Source: Candidatus Woesearchaeota archaeon (lineage in GTDB: Archaea; Nanobdellota; Nanobdellia; Pacearchaeales; JAHJTO01). Taken from it: 64,000 nt of DNA. The notes under the pieces were generated by a model. The model was given only the letters and a program-made list of their open reading frames with translations. It ran no database searches and had not been told where the DNA came from. The stretch is from the NCBI GenBank assembly GCA_964540065.1, contig CAZIKY010000001.1, positions 78,798 to 142,797 on the forward strand. The letters are read 5' to 3'. A program made the translations under genes and the position numbers. Below are positions 23,752 through 57,468 of the stretch, piece after piece; position 1 is the first letter of the stretch, and every line of letters begins with the position of its first letter.

Positions 23752-23757
23752 ATTAAA

Positions 23758-34529: not shown

Positions 34530-35156
34530 ATGATGAGATCCCTCGGAAGGTTATCTCTTGCAATTCTAACTGCTAGCTACGTTACTCTCTCTAATCCTTT
34601 AGAGATTTCAGCAGAAACTAAAGGTGCCGATAAGGGTAAAAAAGAGATCAAATACTTCAGGGGAAAATCAGATTATGATCCTGCAAAGGTAAAAGCTGAA
34701 AGGAAGAAACGGGCACAGGAAGATAAACAATATAGAGAAGTTGTCTTTGAAACATTCAAAGATTATGTCTCAACACTAATCGCCAAAGAATTCGGAGTAA
34801 TCCCTTATTTCTTTGCACCAAAATATTTTTCGAGATGGAAAGGGAAAATGGTTGACCTCAACCCAGAGGAGATAAAGGGCAACTTGAATAAAGCCCTAAG
34901 TGTCAAAGATTTCAGCAGAGTAAAACTCGAAGAATTGATTATTGGAGATGACCCGAATAATCAAGAGAGATTTAAGATAAGGAAACTGTCTGAATTCAGG
35001 AAAGAGTTTAGAGAAAGAGGGTACAAAGAGAAAATACTTTCAAATGACTATCTTGTAATCACAGACTTAAACAAGGAATTGCCTATTCAATCAAAAACTT
35101 TCTTCAGATGCGAAAAGGGTGATACCCGTTGTAAGATTATCGGTGTTTCTTATTAA
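34530..35156 (+). CDS. Secreted hypothetical protein
   Basis: 208 aa. N-terminal signal-like segment (LSLAILTASYVTLSNPLEISAE), then a highly charged K/E-rich body. Confidence 0.35.
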   Translation: MMRSLGRLSLAILTASYVTLSNPLEISAETKGADKGKKEIKYFRGKSDYDPAKVKAERKKRAQEDKQYREVVFETFKDYVSTLIAKEFGVIPYFFAPKYFSRWKGKMVDLNPEEIKGNLNKALSVKDFSRVKLEELIIGDDPNNQERFKIRKLSEFRKEFRERGYKEKILSNDYLVITDLNKELPIQSKTFFRCEKGDTRCKIIGVSY

Positions 35157-38100
35157 GCTACTTCTAGGCATAACCGGCTTCCAGAGTTATATTCACAATT
35201 TAGCTTTGCTACACTCGTGCATGCTTCATTCGTGCAAGCAGAAGGATTACCGTCAAATTCACTACATGAAGGGGCGGAGGCACATGAGCTGCAGCTCCCA
35301 AAAGAGTCTTCAAAAGGCCATATTTCTGGCTTGTAATAACATGAAGTGTAAGAAAGTTCATTCCCTTTTATCTCAAGGGCGATGTTGCCGCAGTTATTTC
35401 TTGTGCAAAGAGAAGTTACTCCCTTCCCACATTCTCCACAGCTTGAAGGATTATTTTTCTTAAAATTTTCAAACTCTTGAGCTTCAACTGCACTTAAGGT
35501 GATATTTATTCTTTTTCCGGGAGCAAGGCTTGCACTTTCCAAATTATTTTCCCTTATTATCTGCTGTACTTTAGATCTCGCCCGGTCATCAAGTTGAGAT
35601 TCATAACCATAAATCTTTCCTAGAGTATTCAAGACAAAATCTGCTAAAAGCTCTGTTCTAGAAACAGTATAATAAATTGTCTGCGGGGATCCCCAAGAAG
35701 TTATCTGGCCCCTCGTAGTTTGCTCTCCAGAAAAGACTATTCCATCTTGGGAATCTGCTACAGCAGATTCTTGACAAAGTCGGTAATTCTCCAGAATATC
35801 ATTAGTGTAAGAAACTACATTAGTTCCAAGATCATCTGCAAGTCTTCTTCCCCTAACCATGAATTGAGAAGAGCTTGTAGTCCTAATCACATTTTCAAGA
35901 TCACTCCAGGTATTAACTTTATAAAATTTTATGGCCCCTTCTAAATTTGGCCCCCCAACAAGATATTCTGCAAGTGCAAAACTTACTGGTTGATCTTTTC
36001 TCCGATGTTTATTATGGACACTTATTAGATGAGATAATCCTGCACGGATATTTGTTCTTGGGTCTTTAAGATCATCCGGATCAGTTATCTGTGGAGCAGG
36101 ACCATTTCTGCCAAATAAGATTTGCATAAGGCCTATAGCATTAGAAACAGAAACAGCATTAGGATTGCCACCAGACTCTCTCAAGATCAAGGCTTTTACA
36201 AGAGTATGTGTCTCGTATTCGCTATACCTTTCACTTGCGCCAATTTCAGCCATAACTTCCCTAATCAACTCACCATATTGGCTTTCAACATTGCTACATT
36301 TTAGTTTTTTGTTCCCTGCAGATTGCCCAGTGCCAGTCACTGTTTCAGTTGGTGCAGGCAAAGTTCTCAGCTCAGTAACAATCAATTTGTAGATCTCAAC
36401 GATTTTTATTCTAGACAATGCCTTATATCGGTTAGAGATGCTCGATTCTGCCACCCTATTAAACTCTGAGAATGCTCTGCTAGCCCTCAACGCCTCTGAG
36501 ATATCCTGGTCAATTACTGCTGATTCTTTTCTAGAGGTCTTTCCTTCACTTATTATCTTTTTCAGCTGCCTCAAAAGATTGTCAAGCTCTTCTTTTCTGT
36601 CGCCAGTAGTTAGTTTGCTGTAAATATCCCTGCTTTCCTGCTCAGTTACGATCTTCCCTTCCTGAGTCAAAAGATTAATGCTTTGATTCCTCGACTCTTC
36701 CAAAGTTAGATTTCTAAGTCCAAGATCCCTTATTGCATTGCTGACAGTATTTCTGTCCAGCCAGCAGCCAATCCTGCCGTCAGGATCACAGAATCCAACT
36801 TTATCCCATCTGTTAGGATCACTTCTCAAACCGGGATTATCTCCAGAGCAGATCCTTACAATTCCTCTCCTGTAAATTTCTGGCTGGACTGCCTCTCCAA
36901 TGCCTCCGACCCCTGGCTGAGCCAAAACTGGAAGGAGTGCTTCCGGCAAAGACTCTGCAGCAAGAAGAGTAGATTTTCCAGCAGTGCATTCATCTTCAGT
37001 CTTTATCTGATAATCTGGAACAGTCTGAGACGCAACATAATAATCTGTAATCTCTTGCACTCCAAATCCGGTTGTCGCTTTCTTAAATCCGCAATAATCT
37101 TTTAAGTTTACCCTTACACAAAGCTGCTTATATCCGCTAGGCAAAATTACATCCCGAGTTATATCTGCTGATTCTCCGATGGGGGTGTATCCTGTCTGTA
37201 TGATTGCCCTTTCAGGAATATTTATTGTGGGAACAAATGCTGGCTCCGCAAGATAAACGGTCCAGTAAGCCGGCTCATCTCTTCCGGCAAAGATATGCCA
37301 GAATACTTTGTATTGAGAGCTTTGAGGGACAGTAACTGATGAAAAGGGAATTTCATCAAACCAGGCATTTATTTGAACGGGAGACTCCGGTCTTGCAAGC
37401 TCATCGAACAGATTTGCAGAATCAGGATACCTTAAACCAATAAATGCCTTGCATAAGAAGCTTCCTGCTTCAGCAGTCGATCTGACTTGGAATGCCCTTA
37501 ACGCGTTTGCACCATAATAATTTGTAAAGAATTGTACTTGCTGGACGCTGTTTTCATAAGCGCTTGCAAATGTCATATATTCTCCGCCTCCGCCGCGGCC
37601 ATAGACTGTTCTTTCAACTAAATTGGGGATTCCAACTTTGAGTAAAGGTGTTAATTCTTTCCAGAAAAACTCGCAAAGATATACGCTTTTAAGCTGGTCG
37701 CATATTCCGACATTTCTTCCAGTCTCCAAATTTTCCTGAAGGCACCTTCTAACGTCTTTCAAAACACTCACTAAATTATCCAAACCTGCATGGACTCCAG
37801 TTAAACAAACTGGGACAGCAACTCCTCCTTTCTCTCCTCCGAGTATTCCTGGAACCCCTGCATTGGGCAGACACAATGCCAAACTCCCAACAATTCCTGT
37901 CTGCACAACATTATCTGTAGGGAATCTTCCTCCGAAGTCGCATCTGCTTGGAGGGCATAAAACTGGATCGCATAAGTTGTAAAGGAGATTACATCTTTCT
38001 GGAGACATGACATCTTCACATTCAATTCCGGGAGAAGTAGCCTTAGCTTGGCCAACCGGAACAGTTATTCCACATGAAGGAAGTGAAATTGGCTGTCCAA

Positions 38101-41100
38101 CTTTTGCATTCCTAGATTGTGAGGCGGCTTCCTTCAAGCATCTTGAAGCTTGGATGACAAAAAGCCTTGTCTGTTCTTCAGTAAGAGGCCCCAAACCACC
38201 TTGGCCTGGCTGATAATTCTCCGTAAGAGGGAAATATCTTGAGCAAGGAGAGTCGTCTCCTGAAGGATTGTCGACATAATCAATATTGCCATCTGGCCCA
38301 ACATTTGCTATCCAGAAGTGTGTGGGTTCTCCGGCTTCTGTATAAGACTCAACATTAGTTATGCCTGCCCTCAAGCTGTCTCCATACGGCCTTGTCGCCG
38401 CATACCATCCCTGGCTTCCATCTGGAGCTTGCCCTAAAGGAATAATTGCAGGCAATCCAGAATAAGGCCCGCTTCCCCAGTATCTTATCTCAGGATTCTG
38501 AAGTACATTGCTGCAGGATCTTCTTCCAGCAACCCTAAGCACTTTATTTCTCAAAACAACAGATTCAGGATCACTAACTTTAGTGACCTGCCCATTATCT
38601 AACTTGAAGTAATTTCCTGTAGGAAGATAAAAGTCTCCTTCACCTTTCGTGACAACCAAGCCGAATACTCCTGTGGCTACAAAAGGTTCAGCGAAGTCCG
38701 TCCTCGTTACCCTTGCATTTACTAAATTAATCAAGGCGATTGTGTCTCCTTCCTTAACCCCCAATCCTTCCAGATTTTGTGAAACTCCTGTAGTTTTTTC
38801 AAGGTCTTTTAAAGGTATTACGACTGCATCTGTGGCCTTGCCTTCAACGATTGTAGGTATGGTCGCTCTAAGATTGGGGAATATCTGGCTGACAGAATTT
38901 TTTGCTAAACTGGAATCCACAATGTTTTTGTGAAGAGTTTCATATTTAGTAAGCCTCTCAAAAAGTTTCTGTTCATATCCTTTACAGAATGCGCTACCAG
39001 GAGATAGTTCCTTTCCTTCACGGCACTTAGCAATAATCTGCGCTTCAGTATTCAGATCTCTGGTTTCTTCAAAGCTTAGGGTCTCATTTCCATAAAGACT
39101 TGAGAACCTGCTTAAGGCAGCACTGACTCTTGAAGGATCTAAAGTCTGATTCTGCCCATTTAAGTCAATACCACTTATCCCGCCGAGGTTATATCTGTTG
39201 AAAACTTCTGTCTGGAAAGCATCGACTAAAACTTTCCTGCCTTCAGGAGTTATAGTCTCTTTGCAGATTATTCCAATAAATGTGCAGTCTTTTTTTATTA
39301 CTCCCGGGGTTTTCTTAAGGGTCTCACTTAGCTTATTGGAATCTTCAATAACATTTTGCAGAGAATCTATCTGCTTTCCGATATCTTCACGAGATTTAAA
39401 AATGCATTCGTTGAAATCATTAGTCCCTATGCTCTGTTGATTAGATTTTTCATTGCACCATTCAGTCCATCCTTTGTAAGTTCCTCCTCTTGCACCAGTA
39501 AGGGTAGCTTCCCTCATGACAATCTGTCTGGCAAGAGCCTCCCCCTTTGAAACAAAATTTTCTATGAAATTTGTGGCCCAGATAGCTGCACTTCCTGCAA
39601 GGCAAACTTTTCTCCAAGTCATCACAAGATCTCCTAATCTTTGAGTGATTTCCTCAAATTGAGTGATAGTATTATCAAGCTGGGAGATCAAAGATTTTGT
39701 CTGTTCAGTACTAAGTTTTATTGCCCTCTTTTCTATCCCAATATGCACTGAGAAATTTGCAAAGGTCTCGCCTTCTTTGCTAAACGGATGAATTGAAACT
39801 GTAGCTTGCCTCTGAAGATTTATTCTCTCAAGCCGTACGTCGATTGTATCACTTAATTTCTCTGACTGCCCTCTTCTTAATGTGACTTCACTTCTCTTTA
39901 ACTGCTCATTTGGCCTGAAGTCGCTTATCCTTCTTAGGAATACTGAAGTTTCATCAATCCGTTCAACCTGCCAATCCGATCCGATCACTTCCTTAAAACC
40001 AACAGTCCTAATTTCATTATTGACAAAGATCTCTGCTCCAAGTTCTGCAGTTGTTGGCCTGGATAAAGTCTCCAAAGCAACATAATAAGTTCTTCCGCCT
40101 GAAGAGATAATCTTGGTAGCTTCATTTGTGTCTCCAGAAGAATAAATATCCTTAAGTCTCTGCCTTGCTTTTGGAGTCTTTGTTGACTGAGGATATCTGT
40201 TGATTATTTCTTCAAGAATTTTTACTTGATCTTGGTTTTTTCCCAATATCCTTGCAGTTTCAGCTGCCTGCCATAAGGCATTCTCACCAAGGAATTCTCC
40301 CTGAGGCGTATCTACTTCTTTTTCGTTAGGGAAATCTTTAACGACAGTTTCATAATTTGCCTTGTACAAAGCATAATATTTCTCCACGACAGGCTGATAG
40401 CTCTGCTGAAGTATCGCATCCACGCTTACAACCTCAATAACTACCCCATCAACAAGGCTATCGCTCCTATCAACTACAACAATTGAATCCGATCCGGCAA
40501 CTTCCCTTAAGGCCGAAGCAAAACTGCTTTGACTAGAAGCTTTAGCTCTGACATCAGATCCAGCAAGGAACCGCTCTATCCTCTTGTTCGTCTCAGTTAT
40601 CTGTTTTGGATCTCTTGTTTTTTGAAGTACCACTATTTTCCATTCTTCATTAAAGTTTTCTCTCGGAATAAGGTACTTCCCAACAAAAGAAACAGTGAAG
40701 TTGGAAGTTGGCTTTCCAGCCACATTCACTGAAAGCAAATCTCCTCCTCTGTACTCTTTGATCCCCTCTTCTCCTACCTTTATCCTTGCTATCGCTCCAG
40801 GCTTATTCAAAACATAAAGACCCTCGGGACATTGCAGCGAAACTCTTCCGCCGACCCCATACGATGAAGGGGAAACCTCTGTAACCCTGCACCGATTATC
40901 TAAAACCATCATCCCTTCACCGATATCAATGGAATTTCCGTTAACATTTAAGGTAGCTTTATCTTTAGGTGCATCTATTTGATTTAGCCGGATATTCAAT
41001 CCGGCACCGCAGTACATTCCCGGAAGGTAGACCAAAGAGGACCTTTTTCCAGGTTCAAGAGTGAAAGTCTGTAAAGGTCTTTCAGGTCCGGCATAAATTG

Positions 41101-41839
41101 CGACTTGAGCAGTATTTCCACTTATTCCAAGAACACGCACATAACCCTTGCCGTTCCAGAATCCATATCTCTGATAATCTCTTTGCCATTGCTCCTCTGT
41201 TAGAACTGGGAGAATAAAGTTGTCATTCGTTATTCCAAAGCTTGTGGTGACGTCATAGGTTATCCTAGCAGTTAAATTTGCATTTATCGAATCTGGCATG
41301 TCTCTCTCTGCAGGAATCTGATTTAAAACAACGACTACATATCCTAATTCTCCGCTTATAGGAGAACCGACAAGCTCATCAAAAGGAGTTGTCTGCTTTA
41401 AGGCAGCCCTATATGGGTGGAAAAGAATCGCCTTTATTCCTTCAGGAGCCCTGGCCCCAGAAGCAAAGTTTACACTCCTTATATGGGGCACTTCTATAAG
41501 AGGATTCGTTTTCAAAGTAGTTAGTTTGCAAAATACTGGAATGGACTGTTCTTCAAGAAGGTCAGATCTTACAACAGCAGGGCTGCAGGATCCTGGAAGA
41601 ATATTAAGCACAAAATCCTGCCCTTGTCCGTCCTGGCAGAATTGCTGGTCAATTGTCGGGAAATAATATTTTGAAGCTTCTCCATAATAACTGAACGGCG
41701 AATATTGGTAAGAGGGTATGGCTGAAACTTGCGCAGAAACAAATGCTGGATCAGAAACTAAGAATACTGCAAAAGCTACTGCTAAAATTATCGAAAACTT
41801 CTTCATTAAAAGTTTTTTATTTATTTCTCCTTTTGCCAT
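35153..41839 (-). CDS. Giant (2228 aa) secreted, Cys-rich surface protein with a C-proximal GH23/SLT lytic-transglycosylase-like domain
   Basis: Uninterrupted 6.7-kb ORF. Sec-type signal peptide (KKFSIILAVAFAVFLVSDPAFVSAQV). SLT motifs LILRESGG (catalytic Glu at about residue 1888, nt 36176..36178), AIGLMQI and ALAEYLVGGPN. A mid-protein and a C-terminal Cys-rich segment (last about 95 aa). Confidence 0.7.
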   Translation of the reverse strand: MAKGEINKKLLMKKFSIILAVAFAVFLVSDPAFVSAQVSAIPSYQYSPFSYYGEASKYYFPTIDQQFCQDGQGQDFVLNILPGSCSPAVVRSDLLEEQSIPVFCKLTTLKTNPLIEVPHIRSVNFASGARAPEGIKAILFHPYRAALKQTTPFDELVGSPISGELGYVVVVLNQIPAERDMPDSINANLTARITYDVTTSFGITNDNFILPVLTEEQWQRDYQRYGFWNGKGYVRVLGISGNTAQVAIYAGPERPLQTFTLEPGKRSSLVYLPGMYCGAGLNIRLNQIDAPKDKATLNVNGNSIDIGEGMMVLDNRCRVTEVSPSSYGVGGRVSLQCPEGLYVLNKPGAIARIKVGEEGIKEYRGGDLLSVNVAGKPTSNFTVSFVGKYLIPRENFNEEWKIVVLQKTRDPKQITETNKRIERFLAGSDVRAKASSQSSFASALREVAGSDSIVVVDRSDSLVDGVVIEVVSVDAILQQSYQPVVEKYYALYKANYETVVKDFPNEKEVDTPQGEFLGENALWQAAETARILGKNQDQVKILEEIINRYPQSTKTPKARQRLKDIYSSGDTNEATKIISSGGRTYYVALETLSRPTTAELGAEIFVNNEIRTVGFKEVIGSDWQVERIDETSVFLRRISDFRPNEQLKRSEVTLRRGQSEKLSDTIDVRLERINLQRQATVSIHPFSKEGETFANFSVHIGIEKRAIKLSTEQTKSLISQLDNTITQFEEITQRLGDLVMTWRKVCLAGSAAIWATNFIENFVSKGEALARQIVMREATLTGARGGTYKGWTEWCNEKSNQQSIGTNDFNECIFKSREDIGKQIDSLQNVIEDSNKLSETLKKTPGVIKKDCTFIGIICKETITPEGRKVLVDAFQTEVFNRYNLGGISGIDLNGQNQTLDPSRVSAALSRFSSLYGNETLSFEETRDLNTEAQIIAKCREGKELSPGSAFCKGYEQKLFERLTKYETLHKNIVDSSLAKNSVSQIFPNLRATIPTIVEGKATDAVVIPLKDLEKTTGVSQNLEGLGVKEGDTIALINLVNARVTRTDFAEPFVATGVFGLVVTKGEGDFYLPTGNYFKLDNGQVTKVSDPESVVLRNKVLRVAGRRSCSNVLQNPEIRYWGSGPYSGLPAIIPLGQAPDGSQGWYAATRPYGDSLRAGITNVESYTEAGEPTHFWIANVGPDGNIDYVDNPSGDDSPCSRYFPLTENYQPGQGGLGPLTEEQTRLFVIQASRCLKEAASQSRNAKVGQPISLPSCGITVPVGQAKATSPGIECEDVMSPERCNLLYNLCDPVLCPPSRCDFGGRFPTDNVVQTGIVGSLALCLPNAGVPGILGGEKGGVAVPVCLTGVHAGLDNLVSVLKDVRRCLQENLETGRNVGICDQLKSVYLCEFFWKELTPLLKVGIPNLVERTVYGRGGGGEYMTFASAYENSVQQVQFFTNYYGANALRAFQVRSTAEAGSFLCKAFIGLRYPDSANLFDELARPESPVQINAWFDEIPFSSVTVPQSSQYKVFWHIFAGRDEPAYWTVYLAEPAFVPTINIPERAIIQTGYTPIGESADITRDVILPSGYKQLCVRVNLKDYCGFKKATTGFGVQEITDYYVASQTVPDYQIKTEDECTAGKSTLLAAESLPEALLPVLAQPGVGGIGEAVQPEIYRRGIVRICSGDNPGLRSDPNRWDKVGFCDPDGRIGCWLDRNTVSNAIRDLGLRNLTLEESRNQSINLLTQEGKIVTEQESRDIYSKLTTGDRKEELDNLLRQLKKIISEGKTSRKESAVIDQDISEALRASRAFSEFNRVAESSISNRYKALSRIKIVEIYKLIVTELRTLPAPTETVTGTGQSAGNKKLKCSNVESQYGELIREVMAEIGASERYSEYETHTLVKALILRESGGNPNAVSVSNAIGLMQILFGRNGPAPQITDPDDLKDPRTNIRAGLSHLISVHNKHRRKDQPVSFALAEYLVGGPNLEGAIKFYKVNTWSDLENVIRTTSSSQFMVRGRRLADDLGTNVVSYTNDILENYRLCQESAVADSQDGIVFSGEQTTRGQITSWGSPQTIYYTVSRTELLADFVLNTLGKIYGYESQLDDRARSKVQQIIRENNLESASLAPGKRINITLSAVEAQEFENFKKNNPSSCGECGKGVTSLCTRNNCGNIALEIKGNELSYTSCYYKPEIWPFEDSFGSCSSCASAPSCSEFDGNPSACTNEACTSVAKLNCEYNSGSRLCLEVA

Positions 41840-41857
41840 CCTATTTTTTATTTTTGA

Positions 41858-43720
41858 TTATCTAAGTGTAATTCCAACAGTTGAAACTGCAATATTATTG
41901 TAAACGTCCTGCAGTTCCAAAACAGTTCTAGGGGTTGGCTGCGCACCAATCTCCACACCAACGAAACTTGCTGCTTCCAAATCTTCATCTGTAAACATTA
42001 CATCAGCAGTGCCACCGCCGATAGTAAGCTGATTGAGCTCTTGGGCAGGCTGACTGATAGTATAACATTCTTCTCTGTCAAAGCCTAAAACTCCGAACAG
42101 TCCGCTTCTAGGAACACTCACACATTTCTCAACGCTTTGTGCTTCAAGGACGATCCTTCCTTCTTTGAAAAGGTAAGAAGTTACCTTATAGTTCCCCTCA
42201 ACAAGATTTATTCTATTCTGTTCTGGATATAAAATGCTTTCAGTAGCGTCTTCAGAACTGAATGTTACTAAAGCAGTCTCGCCCTCTTCCAGCCTTACGA
42301 GATCCTTAAGTACAACAACTTCAAGATTATGCTTTGGCTTCATTATAACAACTGCGCTTTCCACTTCATTCGTTGAAACTTGGACCCTTGCATCAGCATA
42401 GCCTTCTTTTTTAGCGATGATAAATCCGTTAACGCATTGAGGGAATTGTCCTTCAAGATTTCCTTCCTCTGCAAAGCCTACTCGACAGACGGTCCCTGCG
42501 CATTTAAAGCTTACATCTGCTTCAACAGAAAATCCTTGGAGATCAATCACATCTACATTAACCTCTTGGGTCTTGAATTGGCAAAGCTCCTGCACTTCTC
42601 CTTCCGGACTTTCGATTGGAACTTCTCCTCTTGGAAGATTATTTTCAACTGAGACAATCACGGGAAATTGGAAAAGACCGAAGTCTTCATCGAAAATTTG
42701 CACCATTACTGGATAAGTAACGGTATAGACGAAGTGATAAGGGACATAACAGAATCCCAGTATTCCGAGCCCCTCTTGGTTTCCTATTGGGTCTGCCCTT
42801 AAAAGATCATCAGTAGAAGGGACTATCTCTATTTTTGTGGGGAAATTTTGATCATAAATGAAATTCACTTGTTCTCCTTCTAAGCCAAGATCCAGGTCTC
42901 TTTCAAAATATTTTCTTTCATCACTTGAAAGATCATAGTAATTTCCGGCGACCCTTATTGTAGGGATGTTGTCTGCAAGTGCAGTCTTAAGATCGCTAAC
43001 AATTTGTTGCTTCTGCCATATCTTGGGGCTGCAGGTCAATTCAACTCCTGTCCCCGGGACATATAATGCGAGGATATCTGTGGTGTACTCTTCAAAAAAC
43101 TTAAGATTTTTATGCCGGTCATAAAGTGCTGTAGACAGATCATAAAGCCTTCCAAAATTGCTTCTTACAGAAGTAGAGTAAGAAGTGATCCTTCTCGAGG
43201 TCTGTTGGTAATCGATTGTAACAGGCCATTCAAGATCCACATAAACTCTGTCAGACCTCAGATCAACATTTATATTAGAAGGCTCTTCCAAAGTAAAGAC
43301 ATAGCCTTCTTGTTCAAGAGCGGAAAAGTCACAGTTAAGAAGATTTTGAGAGATATAATCCTCTAGTTGATTTTCCATCGAGCTTATAGAAGGGACTTGC
43401 TCTTTGTATATTCCATTTGCAGAGAGGTAAAACCAGAAAGGAATTGTTGATCCAAAAAATTCTAACTGGGAAGTTGAAGGAGCATATTCGCTTCCAGGTT
43501 CAAACTCTGGAAGTTCAATGTATCCGCCTTGTTCCCCCATAGTTTCAAGACCCTCGAGAGCCAAGTCAGAAACGCACCCTAAAATTTGATCATTAACTGG
43601 CGCAACATCTGCAGGCAGACCAAACGGCCTCAAACCTAAAGAGTATGCAAGAACAATTCCTGCGACAAGCAAAATCGCAATGATTACATATAGGGCAATC
43701 TGGCCTTTCTTATTCGACAT
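41858..43720 (-). CDS. Acidic secreted protein with an N-terminal class III (type IV pilin-like) signal/anchor
   Basis: The probable start is the internal ATG giving MSNKKGQIALYVIIAILLVAGIVLAYSLG (K-K-G then a hydrophobic helix). About 620 aa. The track ORF from 43837 overlaps tRNA-Val, so its N-terminal extension is discounted. Confidence 0.5.
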   Translation of the reverse strand: MSNKKGQIALYVIIAILLVAGIVLAYSLGLRPFGLPADVAPVNDQILGCVSDLALEGLETMGEQGGYIELPEFEPGSEYAPSTSQLEFFGSTIPFWFYLSANGIYKEQVPSISSMENQLEDYISQNLLNCDFSALEQEGYVFTLEEPSNINVDLRSDRVYVDLEWPVTIDYQQTSRRITSYSTSVRSNFGRLYDLSTALYDRHKNLKFFEEYTTDILALYVPGTGVELTCSPKIWQKQQIVSDLKTALADNIPTIRVAGNYYDLSSDERKYFERDLDLGLEGEQVNFIYDQNFPTKIEIVPSTDDLLRADPIGNQEGLGILGFCYVPYHFVYTVTYPVMVQIFDEDFGLFQFPVIVSVENNLPRGEVPIESPEGEVQELCQFKTQEVNVDVIDLQGFSVEADVSFKCAGTVCRVGFAEEGNLEGQFPQCVNGFIIAKKEGYADARVQVSTNEVESAVVIMKPKHNLEVVVLKDLVRLEEGETALVTFSSEDATESILYPEQNRINLVEGNYKVTSYLFKEGRIVLEAQSVEKCVSVPRSGLFGVLGFDREECYTISQPAQELNQLTIGGGTADVMFTDEDLEAASFVGVEIGAQPTPRTVLELQDVYNNIAVSTVGITLR

Positions 43721-43796
43721 TTTCCCTCTTTTAAGCTCATTTAAAGAGGAAAAAGTGATATATAAAGGTTGTTCAATAATCTCGAAGAAAAATAAA

Positions 43797-43868
43797 TGAC
43801 CCCAGGAGGAGTCGAACCTCCATTTGGTCCACGTCAAGGACCCGTCATAGCCGCTAGACCATGGGGTC
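43797..43868 (-). tRNA. tRNA-Val (anticodon GAC)
   Basis: Minus-strand cloverleaf: acceptor GACCCCA/TGGGGTC, anticodon stem GGTCC/GGACC with loop TTGACGT, T-arm GGAGG-TTCGACT-CCTCC. A TTTAAAAC box lies about 30 nt upstream at 43897..43904. Confidence 0.8.
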
Positions 43869-43905
43869 AGTCATAACGTTGATAGAAAAGCGCGTGTTTT
43901 AAAGA

Positions 43906-46403: not shown

Positions 46404-47090
46404 CTACACGACCCTAATAATCATCCATATTCCTAAAAGTATTAACACTAAGCCTAAGGATAGTCTCATCAATCCCCTGTGTTTAAGCCTCCAGCTTTCT
46501 AGTTTTTTAATTGAAGCGCCCTTGAATACTGCAAAAAGAATAACTATTAGGGGCAAGATGAAAATAAGATTATAAAGGACAAGCAGGGTAAAATTGCTTA
46601 TTGTTAATCCCGAAAGAGACATGAGGCTTAAAACGGCCAAGTAAACTGCTCCAGTACATGGAAGCTCGACTAAGGCTACAAATGCTCCCAAAAAGAAGGC
46701 AGTACTAAGCTTTCCCGAAACCCTTTTAACATAAACTTTTATCCTTTCTGCTTCCTTGGGAAAGATCATAAGGCTTGGCCCCAAACCATACCAAAAATAA
46801 TCCTTTATCTCAAGAAGCCCTGCAACTATAATAATCGCTGCAAGAACAATATAAGATATAACTGAGAACCTTCCAAGCTGCTGGATTATCGGGAGAATTA
46901 AAAGCCCTGCAAGAAGATAAGTTATGAAAACCGCAGAAATATAAACTAATCCATTGACTAAAATTTTTCCCCTCTCCTTGAAAGTTTTAGTAAGATATGC
47001 CAACAAGAATATCAGGACCCCAAAAGCACAAGGGTTGATTGCATCTACAGCAGCCGCTCCGATAATTAAAGGGATATTTACTTCAGCCAT
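46404..47090 (-). CDS. ccdA: CcdA/DsbD-family thiol-disulfide transporter membrane protein
   Basis: 228 aa polytopic protein with the two conserved intramembrane Cys (INPCAFG and ELPCTGA). Confidence 0.7.
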   Translation of the reverse strand: MAEVNIPLIIGAAAVDAINPCAFGVLIFLLAYLTKTFKERGKILVNGLVYISAVFITYLLAGLLILPIIQQLGRFSVISYIVLAAIIIVAGLLEIKDYFWYGLGPSLMIFPKEAERIKVYVKRVSGKLSTAFFLGAFVALVELPCTGAVYLAVLSLMSLSGLTISNFTLLVLYNLIFILPLIVILFAVFKGASIKKLESWRLKHRGLMRLSLGLVLILLGIWMIIRVV

Positions 47091-47223: not shown

Positions 47224-48006
47224 TTATTCTAACCTCAAAATGATTTCATCTTTATCCTTCCATGGATAATCTAAACCTTCTACCTTTTCCACCCCGTTTA
47301 CTTTTAAAGTAAGATTGGCAGGCTTTGTGCCGCAATTTTGTGGAAGCTCGTATTTCATTTGCCTTAAAAATTCTTTCACAGAAAATATTTCCGGATCAAA
47401 TAATTCCCGAGTTTGCGGATTAATTCCAGTAATATTGTGCCAATGCGCGAGATTTCTTTCTTTGTGTGTATGTTGCCCCCCAAGATTGCCCTTTTCTAAG
47501 GGAAAGTAAATATCTTCTCCACAAACCTCTGCATCAATATGTGCATGTATATGCATTGCAATATTGCAGTTTCCAGCATTATCACATACTACTATTCCAG
47601 ATTCTGCTCCAGCAGAATAATAAAAAAGCAAGCTGTAAAGGATTATTAGAGTAAGAGCTAGCGACAAAACTGAATAAAGAACTTTCATCCAGGATTTTTT
47701 CTTCCAGGATGTTCTATAAAGGTAAAAAGTACTTGCCACAAAGACTATGAGGGTTATTATTGAGAGTAACAAAAAAAGATTGGGAAAAACAAAGTGGTCA
47801 GCAAAATACGCGGCCTTTAGGGCAAAGGTTGGTTGTTGTAAAAGTGTTTCAAATTCTCTCCCTGCAATAAGCCCCTCTGCGTCTGGGCAGGACTCTGGAG
47901 GGCAGACTTTTCGAGTTTGATTAAAGTCTTCATGAGCAAGAGAAAGAGGGGAAAGAAGGCTTGCAAAAATTACAGTAAGAATTAAGATTATTCCTCCCCT
48001 TTTCAT
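47224..48006 (-). CDS. Membrane protein with signal peptide, Cys pairs and His-rich putative metal-binding motifs
   Basis: 260 aa. VCPPESCPD, TM segments, then HIHAHID ... HTHKE ... HWH. Confidence 0.4.
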   Translation of the reverse strand: MKRGGIILILTVIFASLLSPLSLAHEDFNQTRKVCPPESCPDAEGLIAGREFETLLQQPTFALKAAYFADHFVFPNLFLLLSIITLIVFVASTFYLYRTSWKKKSWMKVLYSVLSLALTLIILYSLLFYYSAGAESGIVVCDNAGNCNIAMHIHAHIDAEVCGEDIYFPLEKGNLGGQHTHKERNLAHWHNITGINPQTRELFDPEIFSVKEFLRQMKYELPQNCGTKPANLTLKVNGVEKVEGLDYPWKDKDEIILRLE

Positions 48007-54287: not shown

Positions 54288-55676
54288 ATGGTACTTGAAA
54301 AACTCGGGAATGTATTGAAGAGCACGATGAAAAAGATAGCAGATGCTATCTTCGTAGACAAGGCCCTAGTCGAGGGGATCATCAAGGACCTAAAGTACTC
54401 CCTTCTTGAAGCAGATGTAAATCCTGCTTTGATCAGCGATCTTGCAGAAAAAATAAGAAAAACTGCCCTTGACGAAAAAACCAAGCTCGACAGGAAAGAA
54501 CAGCTTATCAAATTAATCCATGATGAAATGGTTAACCTTCTTGGAAAAGAGAAATACGACCTTCCAACAGGCGCCCAAAAGCCACTCAAAGTAATGTTCC
54601 TCGGGCTTTACGGTTCAGGAAAAACAACTACTATCGGAAAACTGGGAATGTATTACTCTAAGAGGGGCTTCAAAACCTGCCTTATAGGCCTTGATGTCCA
54701 TAGGCCAGCCGCTCCAGAGCAACTCGAACAGATTGCCCAAAAGGCAAAACTTCCCGTGTTCATAAACAAAACAGAAAAATCTGCAATTAAGATTTGGAAG
54801 GAGTTTGAAGATAAGATAAAGAAATATGATCTTGTCTTAATAGACACTGCTGGAAGAGATGTTCTAGACAAGGAACTTATAAAAGAGCTTGAGGATCTCA
54901 ACAAAACTATCAACCCTGCCCAAAAAATCCTCGTTATCCCTGCAGACATCGGCCAGACCGCAAAAAAGCAAGCCTCTGAATTCCAAAAATCTGTTGGAAT
55001 TAACGGAGTCATAATCACAAGAATGGACGGCACTGCAAAAGCAGGCGGTGCCTTAACGGCCTGTGCAGAAACTAATGCTCCAGTATTATTTGTGGGAACC
55101 GGTGAAAAGCCCCAGGACATAGAAACTTTCAATCCTACAGCTTTTGTCTCAAGGCTTTTAGGAATGGGAGATTTAGAAGCGCTTTTAGAGAAAGCGAATC
55201 AAGCAATCGAAAAAGAAAAAGCAGAGAAGCTGGAAAAAAGCTTGGCAGAGGGAAAATTCTCTCTCCTAGAATTCTATGATCAGATAAAGGGAATGCAAAG
55301 CATGGGGCCTCTTGGAAAGATAATGGAGCTTATTCCAGGACTAGGTGGGGCAAAGATGCCTGAAGGCCTTTTAGATGTTCAGGAGAAGAAGCTGAAAAAA
55401 TGGAAGGCTGCAATGGACAGTATGACTCAAACAGAAATAGAAGATCCAGATTCCATAGAAAGCAAAAGGATAACAAGAATCGCTAAGGGTTCGGGCACTT
55501 CTCCAGGAGAGATCAAAGAAATGTTAAGCCAATACAAAGTAGTCAAACAATTTGCAGCAAAAGGAAAGGGGATGGACCTTTCACAGATGCAAAATCCCCA
55601 AGATTTGATGAGAAATATGGGTGCAAAGCAGCTTAGAAAGCTGGCAAAGAAGTATAAAGGCCAGCTACCGATTTAA
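54288..55676 (+). CDS. srp54: Signal recognition particle protein SRP54
   Basis: 462 aa. N domain, G domain (GLYGSGKTTTIGKLG, DTAGR, TRMD) and a Met-rich M domain (GMQSMGPLGKIMELIPGLGG). Confidence 0.9.
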   Translation: MVLEKLGNVLKSTMKKIADAIFVDKALVEGIIKDLKYSLLEADVNPALISDLAEKIRKTALDEKTKLDRKEQLIKLIHDEMVNLLGKEKYDLPTGAQKPLKVMFLGLYGSGKTTTIGKLGMYYSKRGFKTCLIGLDVHRPAAPEQLEQIAQKAKLPVFINKTEKSAIKIWKEFEDKIKKYDLVLIDTAGRDVLDKELIKELEDLNKTINPAQKILVIPADIGQTAKKQASEFQKSVGINGVIITRMDGTAKAGGALTACAETNAPVLFVGTGEKPQDIETFNPTAFVSRLLGMGDLEALLEKANQAIEKEKAEKLEKSLAEGKFSLLEFYDQIKGMQSMGPLGKIMELIPGLGGAKMPEGLLDVQEKKLKKWKAAMDSMTQTEIEDPDSIESKRITRIAKGSGTSPGEIKEMLSQYKVVKQFAAKGKGMDLSQMQNPQDLMRNMGAKQLRKLAKKYKGQLPI

Positions 55677-56812
55677 TTGGGAATAACACTCATTAATTCT
55701 CCAACATTCTTTATGTCATAATCTGACTTAACCTTATGGTCTTCCTCTTTGCGGTTTCCAGTTCTTACCCTAATTGTTTTTAACCCTATATTTTGGCCTG
55801 CGATAATATCTGATTCAAGGTCTCCAACCATATAGCTGCCTGTAGTGTCAATATTATGTTCTTGAATCATTTTTTCTATGAGCCTAGTTGCAGGTTTTTT
55901 ATCTGGGCAAAGATTATTCTTATCTCTTTCATGCTCACAATAACCATAGCCTGCAAATTCGACCCCTTTTTCAGAATATTTCCTTAAAACAGATTTGAAA
56001 ACATCTTCTACCTCTTGTATTGACATCCTGCCCTTAGCAACCCATGGTTGAGATGAAACTATAAAAAGCTTATAGCCCATATTCTGGGCTTGAGCTAAAG
56101 CATTATAACTGAATGAGTAAATATCCCCTTTAGGAATAACTTCTGGAGCACCCTCATCGCTCACAAGAGTGGCATCCTTATCAAAAAAGATTGCTTTGTT
56201 CATAGGCATCCCAAGAAGATTTTTGACATGAGACTGCATCACTAGATTTATTGCTTCTGGCCTGCCGTTAGTATTCACATACTTTACATTGGAGAATCTT
56301 TCTCCAAGCTCGAGGTAAAGATCTCTCTGCCTTGTAAGCATTTCAAGATTTTCTCCAGGGCTAATCGGTTCGCCAGTTTCCTCATGGCGTTTCCTTATCC
56401 TTTCCATTGCAATTTCTGGATCACAGATTAAAACTAAAGATAATTCTGGTTTCCGATAATGAGTGTGTCTCGAAACAAGATATTCTAAATCAAATCCTTC
56501 TATCTGCTGTATAACTAAAGAAGACAAATATCCCCGATTATTGAGTATCAAATTTCCTTCTTCCTTAAGCAAAGGCCTCATGTCTTGCTCAGAAAGCTTC
56601 CAACGCCCCTTCATAAAAAGCTCGAAGCATCGACGTTTATCAAAATCCGGCTGTCTCCGCAAGGCCTTTATTTCTTCCCTAAAATAATGCGGCTCCCGAA
56701 ATTGATGGACCTTATAACTGGTATTTGAAGTTAGAAAATTAGAGAGATCTTCAACACGTTTATCTTTTCCGCTCCCACTGATCCCTTCGACTAGAATGAA
56801 TTGGGATTTCAT
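55673..56812 (-). CDS. Bifunctional thymidylate kinase (N-terminal) / HAD-IIIA phosphatase (C-terminal, GmhB/HisB-N-like) fusion
   Basis: Tmk-like motifs: P-loop EGISGSGKD, FREP (TREP-like), NNRGYLSS ... QQ (DRY ... YQ-like), LID RIRKRHEE. HAD motifs: FFDKDATLV (DxDxT), GYCEHERDKNNLCPDKKP (GmhB CxH ... CxxKP Zn site), GDLESD. The start is taken at the ATG encoding MKSQFILVEG. The track ORF extends to 56851. Confidence 0.6.
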   Translation of the reverse strand: MKSQFILVEGISGSGKDKRVEDLSNFLTSNTSYKVHQFREPHYFREEIKALRRQPDFDKRRCFELFMKGRWKLSEQDMRPLLKEEGNLILNNRGYLSSLVIQQIEGFDLEYLVSRHTHYRKPELSLVLICDPEIAMERIRKRHEETGEPISPGENLEMLTRQRDLYLELGERFSNVKYVNTNGRPEAINLVMQSHVKNLLGMPMNKAIFFDKDATLVSDEGAPEVIPKGDIYSFSYNALAQAQNMGYKLFIVSSQPWVAKGRMSIQEVEDVFKSVLRKYSEKGVEFAGYGYCEHERDKNNLCPDKKPATRLIEKMIQEHNIDTTGSYMVGDLESDIIAGQNIGLKTIRVRTGNRKEEDHKVKSDYDIKNVGELMSVIPN

Positions 56813-56814
56813 CT

Positions 56815-57468
56815 TTACTTGCCTGTTCCCGTTCCTCTTGGAGCACCGCATCCAAGAATCCCGAAATCCCGGTATAAATCATAAGAATCTTTTCTTCGAT
56901 AATCCTTTTTTTCTTCATTAGTTTTTGGAATTTCCTGGACGATCTTTACGTCTTTCCACTCATTTGCTAGGGCATAAAAAGGGCATTCTGGCGGGATGCC
57001 CTGCACATGCAACACATTTACTGAATTTTCTAAGTATCGTGCAAGGGAAATTCTATGCAACCCATCAACAACAATATTCATCTTAACTTCTATGGGGTGA
57101 TCATATTTTATGTCTCCACGAGTATCATGATAGATCATTTTCTCCTCGCTAACTTCAACAATAGGGGGAATTAGCATATGCACTTCTCCATTTATGTCTA
57201 ACTCATATCCTCCCGTGAGTTTAAGGGGATCTATGCCATGTTCTCCTAGAAGATGAAGCCTCATGTCTCTCAAAGATTCTAATCTATCTTGCAAAAGGTA
57301 TTTGCTTCCGGGATTCAATTCTGTCCAAAACATCTCTCTTAAAACAATTCGAGCTTTTTGATAAGGAAATACTTTTGGGGAGTTGGGATCTTTAGATTTA
57401 AGAGGGACTGACCTGACTTCACTTATGAGTTTTTCGAGAGGAATGTGTTTTCGGACTAAGACTTTCAT
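56815..57468 (-). CDS. Hypothetical protein in the thymidylate cluster
   Basis: 217-aa ORF with no recognised motif. Translationally coupled on both sides (stop 2 nt before the downstream Tmk-HAD gene start at 56812; its own start overlaps the upstream ThyX-like gene by 4 nt). Confidence 0.35.
   Translation of the reverse strand: MKVLVRKHIPLEKLISEVRSVPLKSKDPNSPKVFPYQKARIVLREMFWTELNPGSKYLLQDRLESLRDMRLHLLGEHGIDPLKLTGGYELDINGEVHMLIPPIVEVSEEKMIYHDTRGDIKYDHPIEVKMNIVVDGLHRISLARYLENSVNVLHVQGIPPECPFYALANEWKDVKIVQEIPKTNEEKKDYRRKDSYDLYRDFGILGCGAPRGTGTGK

What the first reader, a model, noticed from the sequence alone, without database searches (positions are those of the whole stretch)
41858..43837. 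Acidic 620-aa protein with a type-IV-pilin-like (class III) signal immediately upstream of the giant protein
The track ORF overlaps tRNA-Val. The plausible product starts MSNKKGQIALYVIIAILLVAGIVLAYSLG: a short basic n-region ending in K-K-G, then a hydrophobic helix. That is the layout recognised by archaeal prepilin peptidases (PibD/FlaK-type). The rest is a large acidic extracellular domain. The gene is co-oriented with and only 19 nt upstream of the giant SLT-domain protein. A pilin-like anchored partner next to a giant secreted protein suggests a dedicated surface or attachment apparatus.
Basis: inference. Interest (0 to 1): 0.55.

Follow-up and report, generated by a model that had tools for sequence, protein, structure and literature searches.

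The report
Pilin-signal surface partner of giant lysin
A previously unnamed surface protein of tiny DPANN archaea carries a pilin-type export signal and is always encoded directly in front of a giant secreted protein that often ends in a bacterial-cell-wall-cutting enzyme, so the two probably form the cell's tool for attaching to or attacking bacteria.

Summary
The real gene is 41858..43720 (-), 620 aa, pI 4.3. The longer TTG ORF runs into tRNA-Val. The gene ends 18 nt before a 2228-aa Sec-exported protein with an SLT domain.

The protein belongs to a large orphan family: about 2,400 clusters at 50% identity, 394 species genomes, all Pace-/Woese-/Nanoarchaeota. It has no Pfam, NCBIfam or PHROG match.

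- **Signal:** 245 of 253 full-length members carry K-[KR]-[GAS]-Q-[VIL]-[TSA]-[ILV]-[FY]-I-I after a leader of about 4-12 residues. Q7 is 97% conserved. This fits the archaeal class III (prepilin) rule and the +1 Gln of EppA-type pilins.
- **Fold:** no class III signal or pilin profile matches. A variable linker separates the N-terminal helix from the body. The body is a 330-residue domain with no PDB match, followed by three beta-sandwiches.
- **Machinery:** I found no pilus machinery or peptidase in the window, and none in the annotated or motif-scanned flanks of 85 related loci.
- **Coupling:** the giant gene followed in 50 of 50 informative loci, often with a 4-nt overlap. Its roughly 1800-aa core is conserved. 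Fourteen of 48 C-termini carry a Pfam-detectable domain, nearly all peptidoglycan hydrolases.

Best reading: a class-III-signal, N-terminally tethered anchor or adaptor for the giant lysin. Cleavage is inferred, not shown.

The parts
41858..43720 (-). CDS of the 620-aa acidic protein (true start ATG 43720; stop codon 41858-41860)
   Evidence: The start agrees with more than 100 homologues. pI 4.27.
43703..43720 (-). Predicted class III leader, residues 1-6 (MSNKKG). Proposed cleavage between G6 and Q7.
   Evidence: Motif K(-3) K/R(-2) G/A/S(-1) Q(+1) in 245/253 members. Leader length mode 5-6 residues. Cleavage itself is inferred.
43637..43702 (-). Residues 7-28 (QIALYVIIAILLVAGIVLAYSL): hydrophobic N-terminal helix of the putative mature protein. 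Its N-proximal half is strongly conserved.
   Evidence: AF2 helix 5-27. Column conservation at the 65th-95th percentile for residues 4-19, falling afterwards. It is the only hydrophobic segment in the protein.
43604..43636 (-). Residues 29-39: variable, Pro-containing linker between the helix and the ectodomain
   Evidence: pLDDT below 50 at residues 29-33. Conservation at the 1st-10th percentile.
42626..43603 (-). Residues 40-365: alpha/beta ectodomain with no detectable structural or sequence relatives. Carries invariant C49, C130, C230 and C324.
   Evidence: AF2 pLDDT 87.6 and pTM 0.81. Foldseek PDB best E=9e-3, prob 0.06. Profile against PDB sequences found nothing. Invariant columns.
41861..42583 (-). 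Residues 380-620: three beta-sandwich domains (carboxypeptidase-regulatory/transthyretin-like, CnaB/Ig-like), with six invariant Cys
   Evidence: 3e8v, 2nsm, 5aq0, SdrD B domains, SpaC, SlaB. Invariant C380, C407, C412, C429, C533, C552.
43758..43766 (-). TATA-like box TTTATATAT about 42 nt upstream of the ATG (candidate archaeal promoter)
   Evidence: Read directly from the sequence. Promoter function is inferred.
43724..43749 (-). Inverted repeat CCTCTTT...AAAGAGG that includes the Shine-Dalgarno-like GAGGG just before the ATG
   Evidence: Read directly from the sequence. Not analysed further.
43796..43869 (-). tRNA-Val(gac), overlapped by the spurious 5' extension of the track ORF
41840..41857 (-). 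18-nt spacer between the two genes
   Evidence: In 18 of 47 related loci the genes overlap by 4 nt.
35153..41839 (-). CDS of the 2228-aa giant secreted partner. Conserved Cys-rich core of roughly residues 10-1820, then a variable C-terminal part.
   Evidence: No hydrophobic segment other than the signal peptide.
41732..41839 (-). Sec-type signal peptide of the giant protein (residues 1-36, ...AFVSA|Q)
   Evidence: Sequence. The giants of 30 other loci also have Sec-type signals and none has the KGQ motif.
35999..36208 (-). SLT (GH23 lytic transglycosylase) domain of the giant protein, residues 1878-1947. Contains RESGG and GLMQ.
   Evidence: Pfam PF01464 E=7.8e-13, 48.5 bits against a cut-off of 21.3. 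NCBIfam and PHROG lysin hits fall on the same stretch. The ES and GLMQ motifs are read from the sequence.

Best explanation
The gene encodes a cell-surface protein specific to Pace-/Woese-/Nanoarchaeota (DPANN). It is made with a short basic class III (prepilin-type) leader, MSNKKG. I propose the following sequence of events.

1. The preprotein inserts N-in/C-out into the membrane.
2. The cell's general class III signal peptidase (a FlaK/PibD/EppA-type enzyme encoded elsewhere) cuts between G6 and Q7.
3. The mature protein stays tethered by its conserved N-terminal hydrophobic helix. The helix sits either in the membrane or in a short structure assembled by type-IV-filament machinery.
4. A flexible linker then carries an acidic ectodomain, probably disulfide-stabilised. 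It consists of a roughly 330-residue domain of unknown fold plus three beta-sandwich domains.
5. This protein acts as the cell-side anchor or adaptor for the product of the next, translationally coupled gene. That product is a roughly 240-kDa Sec-exported protein with no anchor of its own. Its conserved core carries interchangeable peptidoglycan-hydrolase domains at the C-terminus (a lytic transglycosylase here).
6. Together they would hold a wall-cutting enzyme at the archaeal surface, for attachment to or attack on bacterial partners.

Shown: the motif and its conservation, the architecture, the obligate gene pairing, the Sec signal and lack of anchor in the giant, and the variable hydrolase C-termini. 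Inferred: cleavage, tethering, physical interaction of the two proteins, and the bacterial target.
For: Motif:
- K-[KR]-[GAS]-Q-[VIL]-[TSA]-[ILV]-[FY]-[IV]-I is present in 245/253 full-length members.
- Q7 is 97% conserved, at the 95th percentile of columns. The N-proximal half of the hydrophobic stretch is far better conserved than its C-proximal half and the linker.
- Leaders are mostly 4-12 residues. M. maripaludis EppA substrates have 5-13-residue leaders ending in Gly with +1 Gln (PMC3875500).

Contrast:
- The co-encoded giants carry ordinary Sec signals: the window's own and 30 of 30 others examined.
- The window's other exported proteins also lack the motif.

Lineage has the enzyme:
- flaK, flaI and flaJ are reported in most Woesearchaeota MAGs (PMC11606122; PMC5994134).
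- The Epd-like type-IV-filament 'system 1' occurs in DPANN (bioRxiv 10.64898/2026.04.22.720090).
- PibD also processes non-pilin surface proteins (PMC4858521).

Extracellular nature:
- Ten invariant Cys, beta-sandwich adhesin-like C-terminal half, pI 4.27.

Pairing:
- A giant homologue lies downstream on the same strand in 50/50 loci with enough DNA.
- The genes overlap by 4 nt in 18/47 loci.
- The giant has no TM segment beyond its signal peptide.

Giant C-termini:
- SLT 7, Amidase_3 2, Glucosaminidase 2, Peptidase_M15_4 2 and DUF2272 1, of 48 examined.
- These sit on a core that BLASTP aligns over about residues 10-1820 among five giants. That core keeps many invariant Cys across 31 giants.
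Against: - No profile for class III signals or archaeal pilin N-termini matches. PF04021 gives E=6.7 on one fragment only, and there is nothing in NCBIfam.
- Position +5 is Phe/Tyr, not the Glu seen in EppA-type pilins.
- No peptidase A24, FlaI/PilB-like ATPase or FlaJ/TadC-like platform gene was found in the 64 kb window.
- None appears in the Pfam-annotated flanks of four relatives. A crude motif scan of 85 loci (1.3 Mb) also found none.
- The AF2 model shows no continuous pilin-type alpha1 helix, and Foldseek gives no pilin hit.
- Physical interaction with the giant protein rests only on gene adjacency and on the giant's lack of an anchor.
- Some long 'leaders' in the family are probably mis-called starts, so the variation in leader length is partly artefact.
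Confidence: 0.5

Rival explanations
1. Ordinary uncleaved type II signal anchor. The N-terminus is simply a bitopic membrane anchor (N-in, C-out). The KK-G-Q residues reflect the positive-inside rule plus helix-capping or packing constraints. The protein still serves as the membrane anchor for the giant partner.
For: There is a single hydrophobic segment preceded by Lys/Arg. No pilin or class III profile hits. No peptidase or type-IV-filament genes nearby. The helix is detached from the globular part by a linker.
Against: A plain anchor does not explain a 97%-conserved Gln preceded by a small residue (G/A/S in all 245 motif-bearing members of 253) and two basic residues. It also does not explain why the N-proximal half of the helix is much better conserved than the C-proximal half. 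Nor does it explain why the leader length clusters at 4-12 residues, as in known class III signals.
Confidence: 0.25
2. True type IV filament subunit. After cleavage the protein is extracted from the membrane by a FlaI/FlaJ-type machine and sits in or at the tip of a pilus as a large modular minor pilin. It would present the giant lysin at a distance from the cell.
For: Class III-type motif with +1 Gln, as in Epd pilins. The N-terminal about 13 residues of the mature helix are strongly conserved, as in pilins. Large modular pilins exist, e.g. S. sanguinis PilB (PMC8179133, listed). Type-IV-filament systems occur in DPANN.
Against: No pilin fold, and the helix is not continuous with the head. 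There are no co-located pilins, ATPase or platform genes, and the neighbourhood is housekeeping. Only one other ORF with the same N-terminus was found in 1.3 Mb of related DNA, and it is a rare truncated paralogue.
Confidence: 0.15
3. Envelope (S-layer-like) pair. The 620-aa protein is a membrane-anchored stalk and the giant protein is a canopy, analogous to SlaB/SlaA. On this reading the pair is a structural cell-wall component, not an attack device.
For: The pair is found throughout the lineage (394 species genomes) and sits in a housekeeping neighbourhood. The small-anchored plus large-secreted arrangement fits. The protein is acidic. Foldseek hits SlaB 8qox_B at E=2.5e-4.
Against: The SlaB hit is only through generic beta-sandwich domains (TM 0.12-0.16). 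The anchor is N-terminal here, whereas SlaB is C-terminally anchored by my recollection, which I did not check. Interchangeable peptidoglycan-hydrolase C-termini are not an S-layer trait. The 620-aa protein has no N-glycosylation sequons. A Woesearchaeota metatranscriptome study lists expressed S-layer protein genes without linking them to these proteins.
Confidence: 0.12
4. Sec signal peptide removed by signal peptidase I, giving a soluble secreted protein.
For: The N-terminal hydrophobic stretch could act as an h-region.
Against: No conserved A-x-A-type site follows the hydrophobic stretch. That region is the least conserved part of the protein. All the conservation lies on the N-terminal side. 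The giant partner shows what this organism's Sec signals look like.
Confidence: 0.03

Closest known systems
EppA-processed Epd pilins of Methanococcus maripaludis (Pfam Class_IIIsignal/DUF361; type-IV-filament 'system 1')
   Same: Short basic leader ending in Gly (here G/A/S), invariant +1 Gln, Ser/Thr at +3, then about 20 hydrophobic residues. System 1 is reported in DPANN.
   Different: +5 is Phe/Tyr instead of Glu. No PF04021 match. The protein is 620 aa with a non-pilin ectodomain, where the four smallest Epd-type pilins are 67-76 aa. It is not encoded with EppA, an ATPase or a platform.
Non-pilin class III signal proteins processed by PibD (Sulfolobus sugar-binding proteins of the 'bindosome')
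   Same: Large globular extracellular proteins that use a prepilin-type signal and remain cell-associated through the N-terminal hydrophobic helix. PibD's broad substrate range is stated in PMC4858521. The rest is from my own knowledge.
   Different: Unrelated ectodomain. No ABC transporter partner. The partner here is a giant secreted hydrolase carrier. Processing is untested.
Modular (bimodular) type IV pilins such as Streptococcus sanguinis PilB
   Same: A class III signal plus a large functional module grafted behind it (PMC8179133, abstract listed).
   Different: Those keep a complete pilin module and are encoded in pil loci. No pilin fold is detectable here and there is no pil locus.
[quoted passage not shown] 2021)
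   Same: The downstream 2228-aa protein fits that description: up to about 3,000 aa, an SLT domain, and the same lineages. Identity with fam00969 is by description, not by sequence test.
   Different: The literature I read describes the giant protein only. It does not mention the obligate upstream 620-aa partner or its class III-type signal. It also does not mention that SLT is only one of several alternative C-terminal hydrolase domains.
SlaA/SlaB two-component S-layer of Sulfolobales
   Same: A smaller membrane-anchored beta-sandwich protein encoded next to a very large secreted one. Foldseek hit to 8qox_B.
   Different: The similarity is limited to generic beta-sandwiches. The anchor is at the opposite end (my recollection for SlaB, unchecked). 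The large partner carries enzymatic domains.
Polymorphic toxin / giant cell-wall-degrading proteins of predatory or episymbiotic bacteria (e.g. Omnitrophota giant genes)
   Same: A huge conserved delivery body with swappable C-terminal enzymatic domains aimed at another cell's wall (bioRxiv 10.1101/2023.11.21.568195, listed).
   Different: Archaeal. A different, orphan core. No immunity gene is expected. It is coupled to a class-III-signal partner.

Membership tests
Archaeal class III (prepilin-type) signal peptide proteins | Short positively charged leader ending in [KR]-[GA(S)] directly before the hydrophobic stretch (FlaFind-type rule) | tested here: met
   MSNKK-G|Q here. K/R at -2 in 226/245 and G/A/S at -1 in 245/245 motif-bearing members. 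Leader mode 5-6 residues.
Archaeal class III (prepilin-type) signal peptide proteins | About 20 hydrophobic residues immediately after the cleavage site, retained in the mature protein, with the N-proximal part conserved | tested here: met
   Residues 7-28. AF2 helix 5-27. Conservation gradient.
Archaeal class III (prepilin-type) signal peptide proteins | +1 Gln (EppA-type substrates, DUF361 QxSxExxxL) | tested here: met
   Q7 in 97% of 126 aligned sequences. Thr/Ser at +3 in 219/245.
Archaeal class III (prepilin-type) signal peptide proteins | +5 Glu (EppA-type and bacterial pilins; absent in Sulfolobus and Haloferax pilins) | tested here: not met
   +5 is Phe 214 and Tyr 20 of 245. Reference PMC3875500.
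Archaeal class III (prepilin-type) signal peptide proteins | Match to curated profiles (Pfam PF04021 Class_IIIsignal, archaeal pilin or archaellin N-terminal models, NCBIfam equivalents) | tested here: not met
   No hit at E<=0.01 on the full protein. On six N-terminal fragments the only hit is PF04021 at E=6.7. NCBIfam gives none.
Archaeal class III (prepilin-type) signal peptide proteins | Actual cleavage by a peptidase A24 family enzyme (FlaK/PibD/EppA) | not testable with these tools
   Needs biochemistry or N-terminal proteomics.
Archaeal class III (prepilin-type) signal peptide proteins | A class III signal peptidase encoded in the same genome | tested here: inconclusive
   None in the 64 kb window or in related flanks. 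The rest of the genome is not available. Literature reports flaK in most Woesearchaeota MAGs.
Type IV pilins / archaeal pilins (structural family) | Continuous N-terminal alpha1 helix whose C-terminal half packs on a beta-sheet head; structural similarity to solved pilins or archaellins | tested here: not met
   Helix 5-27 is followed by a low-confidence linker. Foldseek of residues 1-372 against PDB gives best E=9e-3, prob 0.06, with no pilin.
Type IV pilins / archaeal pilins (structural family) | Genomic association with an assembly ATPase, platform protein and other pilins | tested here: not met
   Housekeeping neighbours only (SRP54, FtsY, GINS, S3Ae, LSM, S8e, TFIIB). No PilB/FlaI-type Walker A, and no other pilin-like N-terminus except one rare paralogue, in 1.3 Mb.
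SlaA/SlaB-type S-layer pair | Fold similarity beyond generic beta-sandwiches | tested here: not met
   8qox_B hit at E=2.5e-4 but TM 0.12-0.16, through beta-sandwich domains only.
SlaA/SlaB-type S-layer pair | Small subunit anchored by a C-terminal TM helix | tested here: not met
   The only hydrophobic segment is N-terminal. SlaB's C-terminal anchor is my recollection and was not checked here.
GH23 / SLT lytic transglycosylases (for the giant partner's C-terminal domain) | Pfam SLT match above the gathering score, with the catalytic E-S motif and the GLMQ motif | tested here: met
   PF01464 48.5 bits against a cut-off of 21.3. ...LILRESGGNPNAVSVSNAIGLMQI... read. The meaning of the motifs is from my own knowledge.

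The most novel reading that the evidence does not exclude
The pair is a previously unrecognised archaeal cell-surface attack organelle. A pilin-signal protein is lifted out of the membrane by type-IV-filament machinery encoded elsewhere. It presents a 240-kDa polymorphic peptidoglycan-hydrolase carrier to bacterial cells. That would make it the core device by which Pace- and Woesearchaeota, which have no cultured member, parasitise or prey on bacteria across domains.
Probability: 0.15. Interest if true: 0.85.

Novelty: new variant of a known kind. Interest (0 to 1): 0.6.

Why it matters
To my knowledge Pace- and Woesearchaeota have no cultured member, and how they contact hosts is unknown. Published work has pointed to the giant transglycosylase-bearing proteins as possible host-attachment factors. 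In the papers I could search, nobody mentions that these proteins always come with a conserved 620-aa partner carrying a prepilin-type signal.

If the partner is the cell-side anchor, it offers several things:
- It gives a defined two-protein target for structure prediction, antibodies, cryo-ET and metaproteomics.
- It links the lineage's class III peptidase and type-IV-filament system to host interaction.
- The swappable amidase, glucosaminidase, peptidase and transglycosylase ends argue that the targets are bacterial walls.
- The roughly 330-residue ectodomain has no match among solved structures.

Tried and rejected
- **Profile libraries:** Pfam, NCBIfam and PHROGs on the 620-aa protein gave nothing. 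Pfam at E<=10 on six N-terminal fragments gave only noise.
- **PDB sequences:** the family profile (A1) and the giant-core profile (A5) gave no significant hit. The giant shows only weak TPR-like hints at residues 460-550.
- **Foldseek, full model:** against PDB and BFVD only generic tandem beta-sandwich matches appear, so I inferred no function from them.
- **Foldseek, residues 1-372:** no significant match.
- **Catalytic residues in the N-domain:** apart from Cys, the only near-invariant acidic residues are E210 and D215 (Q351 and N251 are also near-invariant). H329 is not conserved in distant members. I dropped an enzyme reading.
- **Search with the bare 40-residue N-terminus** to find other families sharing it: the word index returned no candidates, which is uninformative, and it cost one search.
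- **Short paralogue in L042:** a search with it found only 4 clusters, so it is not a general 'major pilin'.
- **Viral origin:** no relative in IMG/VR.
- **Machinery near the pair:** I looked for secretion-ATPase Walker A motifs and polytopic GxGD proteins in 85 loci plus the window. Only SRP54/FtsY and ABC proteins turned up. This is a crude motif test, not a profile search.
- **Unanswered:** I could not reach the rest of this genome or walk along the long related contigs, so whether a prepilin peptidase is present in the same genome remains open.
Full report
**What is there**

The track ORF 41858..43837 (-) starts at a TTG. Its first 39 codons run through tRNA-Val(gac) at 43796..43869. The credible start is the ATG at 43720. 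It is preceded by a TTTATATAT box (43766-43758) and a GAGGG five nucleotides upstream. It gives a 620-aa protein beginning MSNKKGQIALYVIIAILLVAGIVLAYSLG, and homologues begin at the same place.

The protein has pI 4.27, with 93 acidic against 42 basic residues. Eight neighbouring proteins have pI 9.0-9.6. It has ten Cys and one hydrophobic segment, at the N-terminus.

Its stop codon is 18 nt from the ATG of a 2228-aa ORF on the same strand. That protein has a Sec-type signal (…AFVSA|Q) and no other hydrophobic segment. It has a Pfam SLT domain at residues 1878-1947, E=7.8e-13. The domain contains RESGG and GLMQ, which I read as the catalytic motifs of family-1 lytic transglycosylases (my own knowledge).

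The window is archaeal. It encodes TFIIB, tRNA-splicing endonuclease, SRP54/FtsY and ribosomal proteins S3Ae and L44e.

**A large orphan family**

The protein has no match in Pfam, NCBIfam or PHROGs. Against public proteins it has more than 1,459 relatives among the candidates scored. It matches 2,384 clusters at 50% identity with E<=1e-3. Nearly all are 600-670 aa. All are 'hypothetical', from Nanoarchaeota, Pacearchaeota or unclassified archaeal MAGs.

A pattern scan of one genome per species found relatives in 394 genomes. Among the 80 best loci kept, all but two are titled Pace-, Woese- or Nanoarchaeota or 'archaeon'. The two exceptions carry bacterial labels, probably from mis-binning. 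No relative exists in the viral collection.

**The N-terminal signal**

I anchored 253 full-length members on their first hydrophobic stretch. Of these, 245 carry [GAS]-Q just before it. Residue counts in those 245 are:

| Position | Residues (count of 245) |
|---|---|
| -3 | K 188 |
| -2 | K/R 226 |
| -1 | G 146, A 77, S 22 |
| +1 | Q 245 |
| +2 | V/I/L 225 |
| +3 | T/S 219 |
| +5 | F/Y 234 |
| +7 | I 213 |

In an independent 126-sequence alignment, Q7 is present in 97% of sequences and sits at the 95th percentile of column conservation. Residues 4-19 lie between the 62nd and 95th percentile. Residues 21-32 fall to the 1st-64th percentile.

So the conserved feature lies at and just after the N-terminal edge of the hydrophobic stretch. 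A class III cleavage site sits there. An SPase I site would lie on the opposite side.

The leader is typically short. It has a median of 8 residues as called. If the nearest upstream Met is used, the median is 6 and the mode 5-6. The long leaders are probably mis-called starts.

This matches the FlaFind-type rule. It also matches the published description of M. maripaludis EppA substrates: leaders of 5-13 residues ending in Gly, with a conserved +1 Gln (PMC3875500). It lacks their +5 Glu, which Sulfolobus and Haloferax pilins also lack.

Within the window this is the only real gene with such an N-terminus. The giant partners of 30 other loci all have ordinary Sec signals. The motif is therefore not just how this lineage writes signal peptides.

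Against membership, no curated class III or pilin N-terminal profile matches.

**Structure**

With 126 sequences AlphaFold2 gives pLDDT 92. The model has these parts:
- Helix 5-27.
- A low-confidence, poorly conserved linker at residues 28-39.
- An alpha/beta domain at residues 40-365.
- Three beta-sandwich domains from about residue 385 to 620.

Foldseek of the whole model against PDB and BFVD returns only multi-beta-sandwich surface proteins. These include SdrD B domains, B. anthracis TIE, SpaC, SlaB, and carboxypeptidase-regulatory or transthyretin-like modules. TM-scores for the multi-domain alignments are about 0.1-0.2. The roughly 80-residue transthyretin-like modules align well to a single domain (TMt 0.6-0.7).

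A separate model of residues 1-372 has pLDDT 87.6 and pTM 0.81. It has no significant PDB match: best E=9e-3, prob 0.06, and no pilin. A family profile against PDB sequences also finds nothing.

Ten Cys are invariant. No convincing catalytic set of residues is conserved. The body therefore looks like a disulfide-stabilised binding or scaffold ectodomain, not an enzyme and not a pilin head.

**Obligate coupling to the giant protein**

In four relatives with called genes, a 1,929-2,283-aa gene follows immediately. In two of these the genes overlap by 4 nt.

Across the 80 species loci, 47 of the 50 with enough downstream DNA have a single ORF of 1,657-2,706 aa (median 2,047) right after the gene. 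The start overlaps the partner's stop by 4 nt in 18 of these 47. The other three still have the giant downstream. In them it is split by a frameshift or displaced by small inserted genes.

BLASTP aligns the window giant with four relatives over about residues 10-1820. A 31-sequence alignment shows many invariant Cys in that core. The core has no PDB relative.

The last 650 residues differ between giants. Of 48 examined, Pfam finds the following:

| Domain | Giants |
|---|---|
| SLT | 7 |
| Amidase_3 | 2 |
| Glucosaminidase | 2 |
| Peptidase_M15_4 | 2 |
| DUF2272 | 1 |
| none detected | 34 |

One further giant (L067) has a C-terminus that looks lysozyme-like to my eye. I did not test that.

So the conserved body carries interchangeable enzymes that cut different bonds of bacterial peptidoglycan.

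The neighbourhood is housekeeping and conserved: SRP54, FtsY, GINS and S3Ae upstream, and LSM, S8e and TFIIB downstream. It contains no pilin, secretion ATPase, platform or A24 peptidase.

**What is known**

Castelle et al. [quoted passage not shown] They found them specific to Pace- and Woesearchaeota and proposed attachment to bacterial walls (PMC8204110). Similar notes appear. The giant gene here fits that description.

My searches of the open literature found no mention of the upstream partner, its signal, or the C-terminal polymorphism.

On the enzyme side, flaK, flaI and flaJ are reported in most Woesearchaeota MAGs. Epd-like type-IV-filament 'system 1' loci occur in DPANN. PibD is known to process non-pilin surface proteins.

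**Interpretation**

The most economical reading has three parts:
- The 620-aa protein uses a class III signal.
- It is trimmed at G6|Q7 by the cell's general class III peptidase and stays tethered by its conserved hydrophobic N-terminus.
- It serves as the anchor or adaptor for the anchorless giant hydrolase carrier made from the coupled gene.

I give this composite 0.5. The pairing and the surface location are well supported. Cleavage is plausible but unproven. The interaction is inferred from context only.

The main rivals, with my probabilities, are:
- An uncleaved signal anchor with the same partner role (0.25).
- An S-layer-like structural pair (0.12, not exclusive of the others).

**Verdict**

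This is a real and strongly conserved feature. The 'pilin fold' and 'dedicated pilus apparatus' are not supported. The thing is best filed as a new variant of the class-III-signal surface proteins. It is coupled to the already noted giant lysins of DPANN archaea.

Noticed in passing
window 35153-37105 (-) and the C-terminal 650 aa of giants in L006-L084: The giant partners share a conserved core of roughly 1800 aa but end in different peptidoglycan-hydrolase domains: SLT 7, Amidase_3 2, Glucosaminidase 2, Peptidase_M15_4 2, DUF2272 1, and none detected in 34 of 48. This is a polymorphic-toxin-like layout.
   Followed up: partly
window about 37640-38020 (-), giant residues about 1274-1400: An exceptionally conserved, Cys-dense and partly hydrophobic block (…C.DFMSP.DC.LLFNVCDPV.CP.SRCD.GG…GI.GS..LCLPN…VP.CL.G.HAG…) is invariant across 31 giants. 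Its function is unknown.
   Followed up: no
L042 18693-19511 (+): A 272-aa ORF directly after the giant gene has the same N-terminus (RKRGQVTIFIIIAVLILAG). It is homologous to residues 4-196 of the 620-aa protein (BLASTP E=9e-10). This truncated paralogue is rare, with only 4 clusters in the protein database.
   Followed up: yes
L034 2964-4090 and L067 2235-3080: In two genomes unrelated small genes are inserted between the partner and the giant gene. L034 has a 235-aa and a 158-aa ORF that look to my eye like a methyltransferase and an acetyltransferase. L067 has a 281-aa ORF. I ran no domain search on any of them.
   Followed up: no
window 59389-62700 (+): The ribonucleotide reductase large subunit is interrupted by an intein with a LAGLIDADG endonuclease domain (Intein_splicing, LAGLIDADG_3, Hint_2 hits).
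   Followed up: no
window 46404-47090 (-) and 47224-48006 (-): A DsbD/CcdA-like membrane protein (PF02683 E=1.8e-5, below its cut-off) and a secreted 260-aa protein with a CPPESCPD motif lie 2.5-4 kb upstream of the Cys-rich secreted pair. This may relate to disulfide handling. The arrangement is not conserved in L003 or L004.
   Followed up: no
window 43724-43749 (-): A 7-bp inverted repeat CCTCTTT/AAAGAGG sequesters the Shine-Dalgarno-like GAGGG just upstream of the start codon. I did not fold or compare it.
   Followed up: no
L050 (JAFCCB010000019.1) and L068 (DATKUW010000047.1): Two contigs carrying this archaeal gene pair sit in MAGs titled 'Candidatus Dojkabacteria bacterium' and 'Bacillota bacterium'. 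Mis-binning is the likely reason, though physical association with bacterial hosts is conceivable.
   Followed up: no
window 41858-43720 (-): The 620-aa ectodomain contains no N-x-S/T sequon at all, and the giant has 8 in 2228 aa. That is unusual for archaeal surface proteins, which are often N-glycosylated.
   Followed up: no
window 55673-56851 (-) and 57465-59315 (-): A thymidylate kinase is fused to a HAD-like hydrolase domain. A nearby 616-aa protein has only a partial ThyX (Thy1) match at its C-terminus.
   Followed up: no
window 23695-24204 (+): The listed GTG ORF begins inside tRNA-Met (23681-23752). Its real start is probably the internal Met, at MKKLIQVQ…. This is the same kind of ORF-over-tRNA artefact as in the finding.
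   Followed up: no
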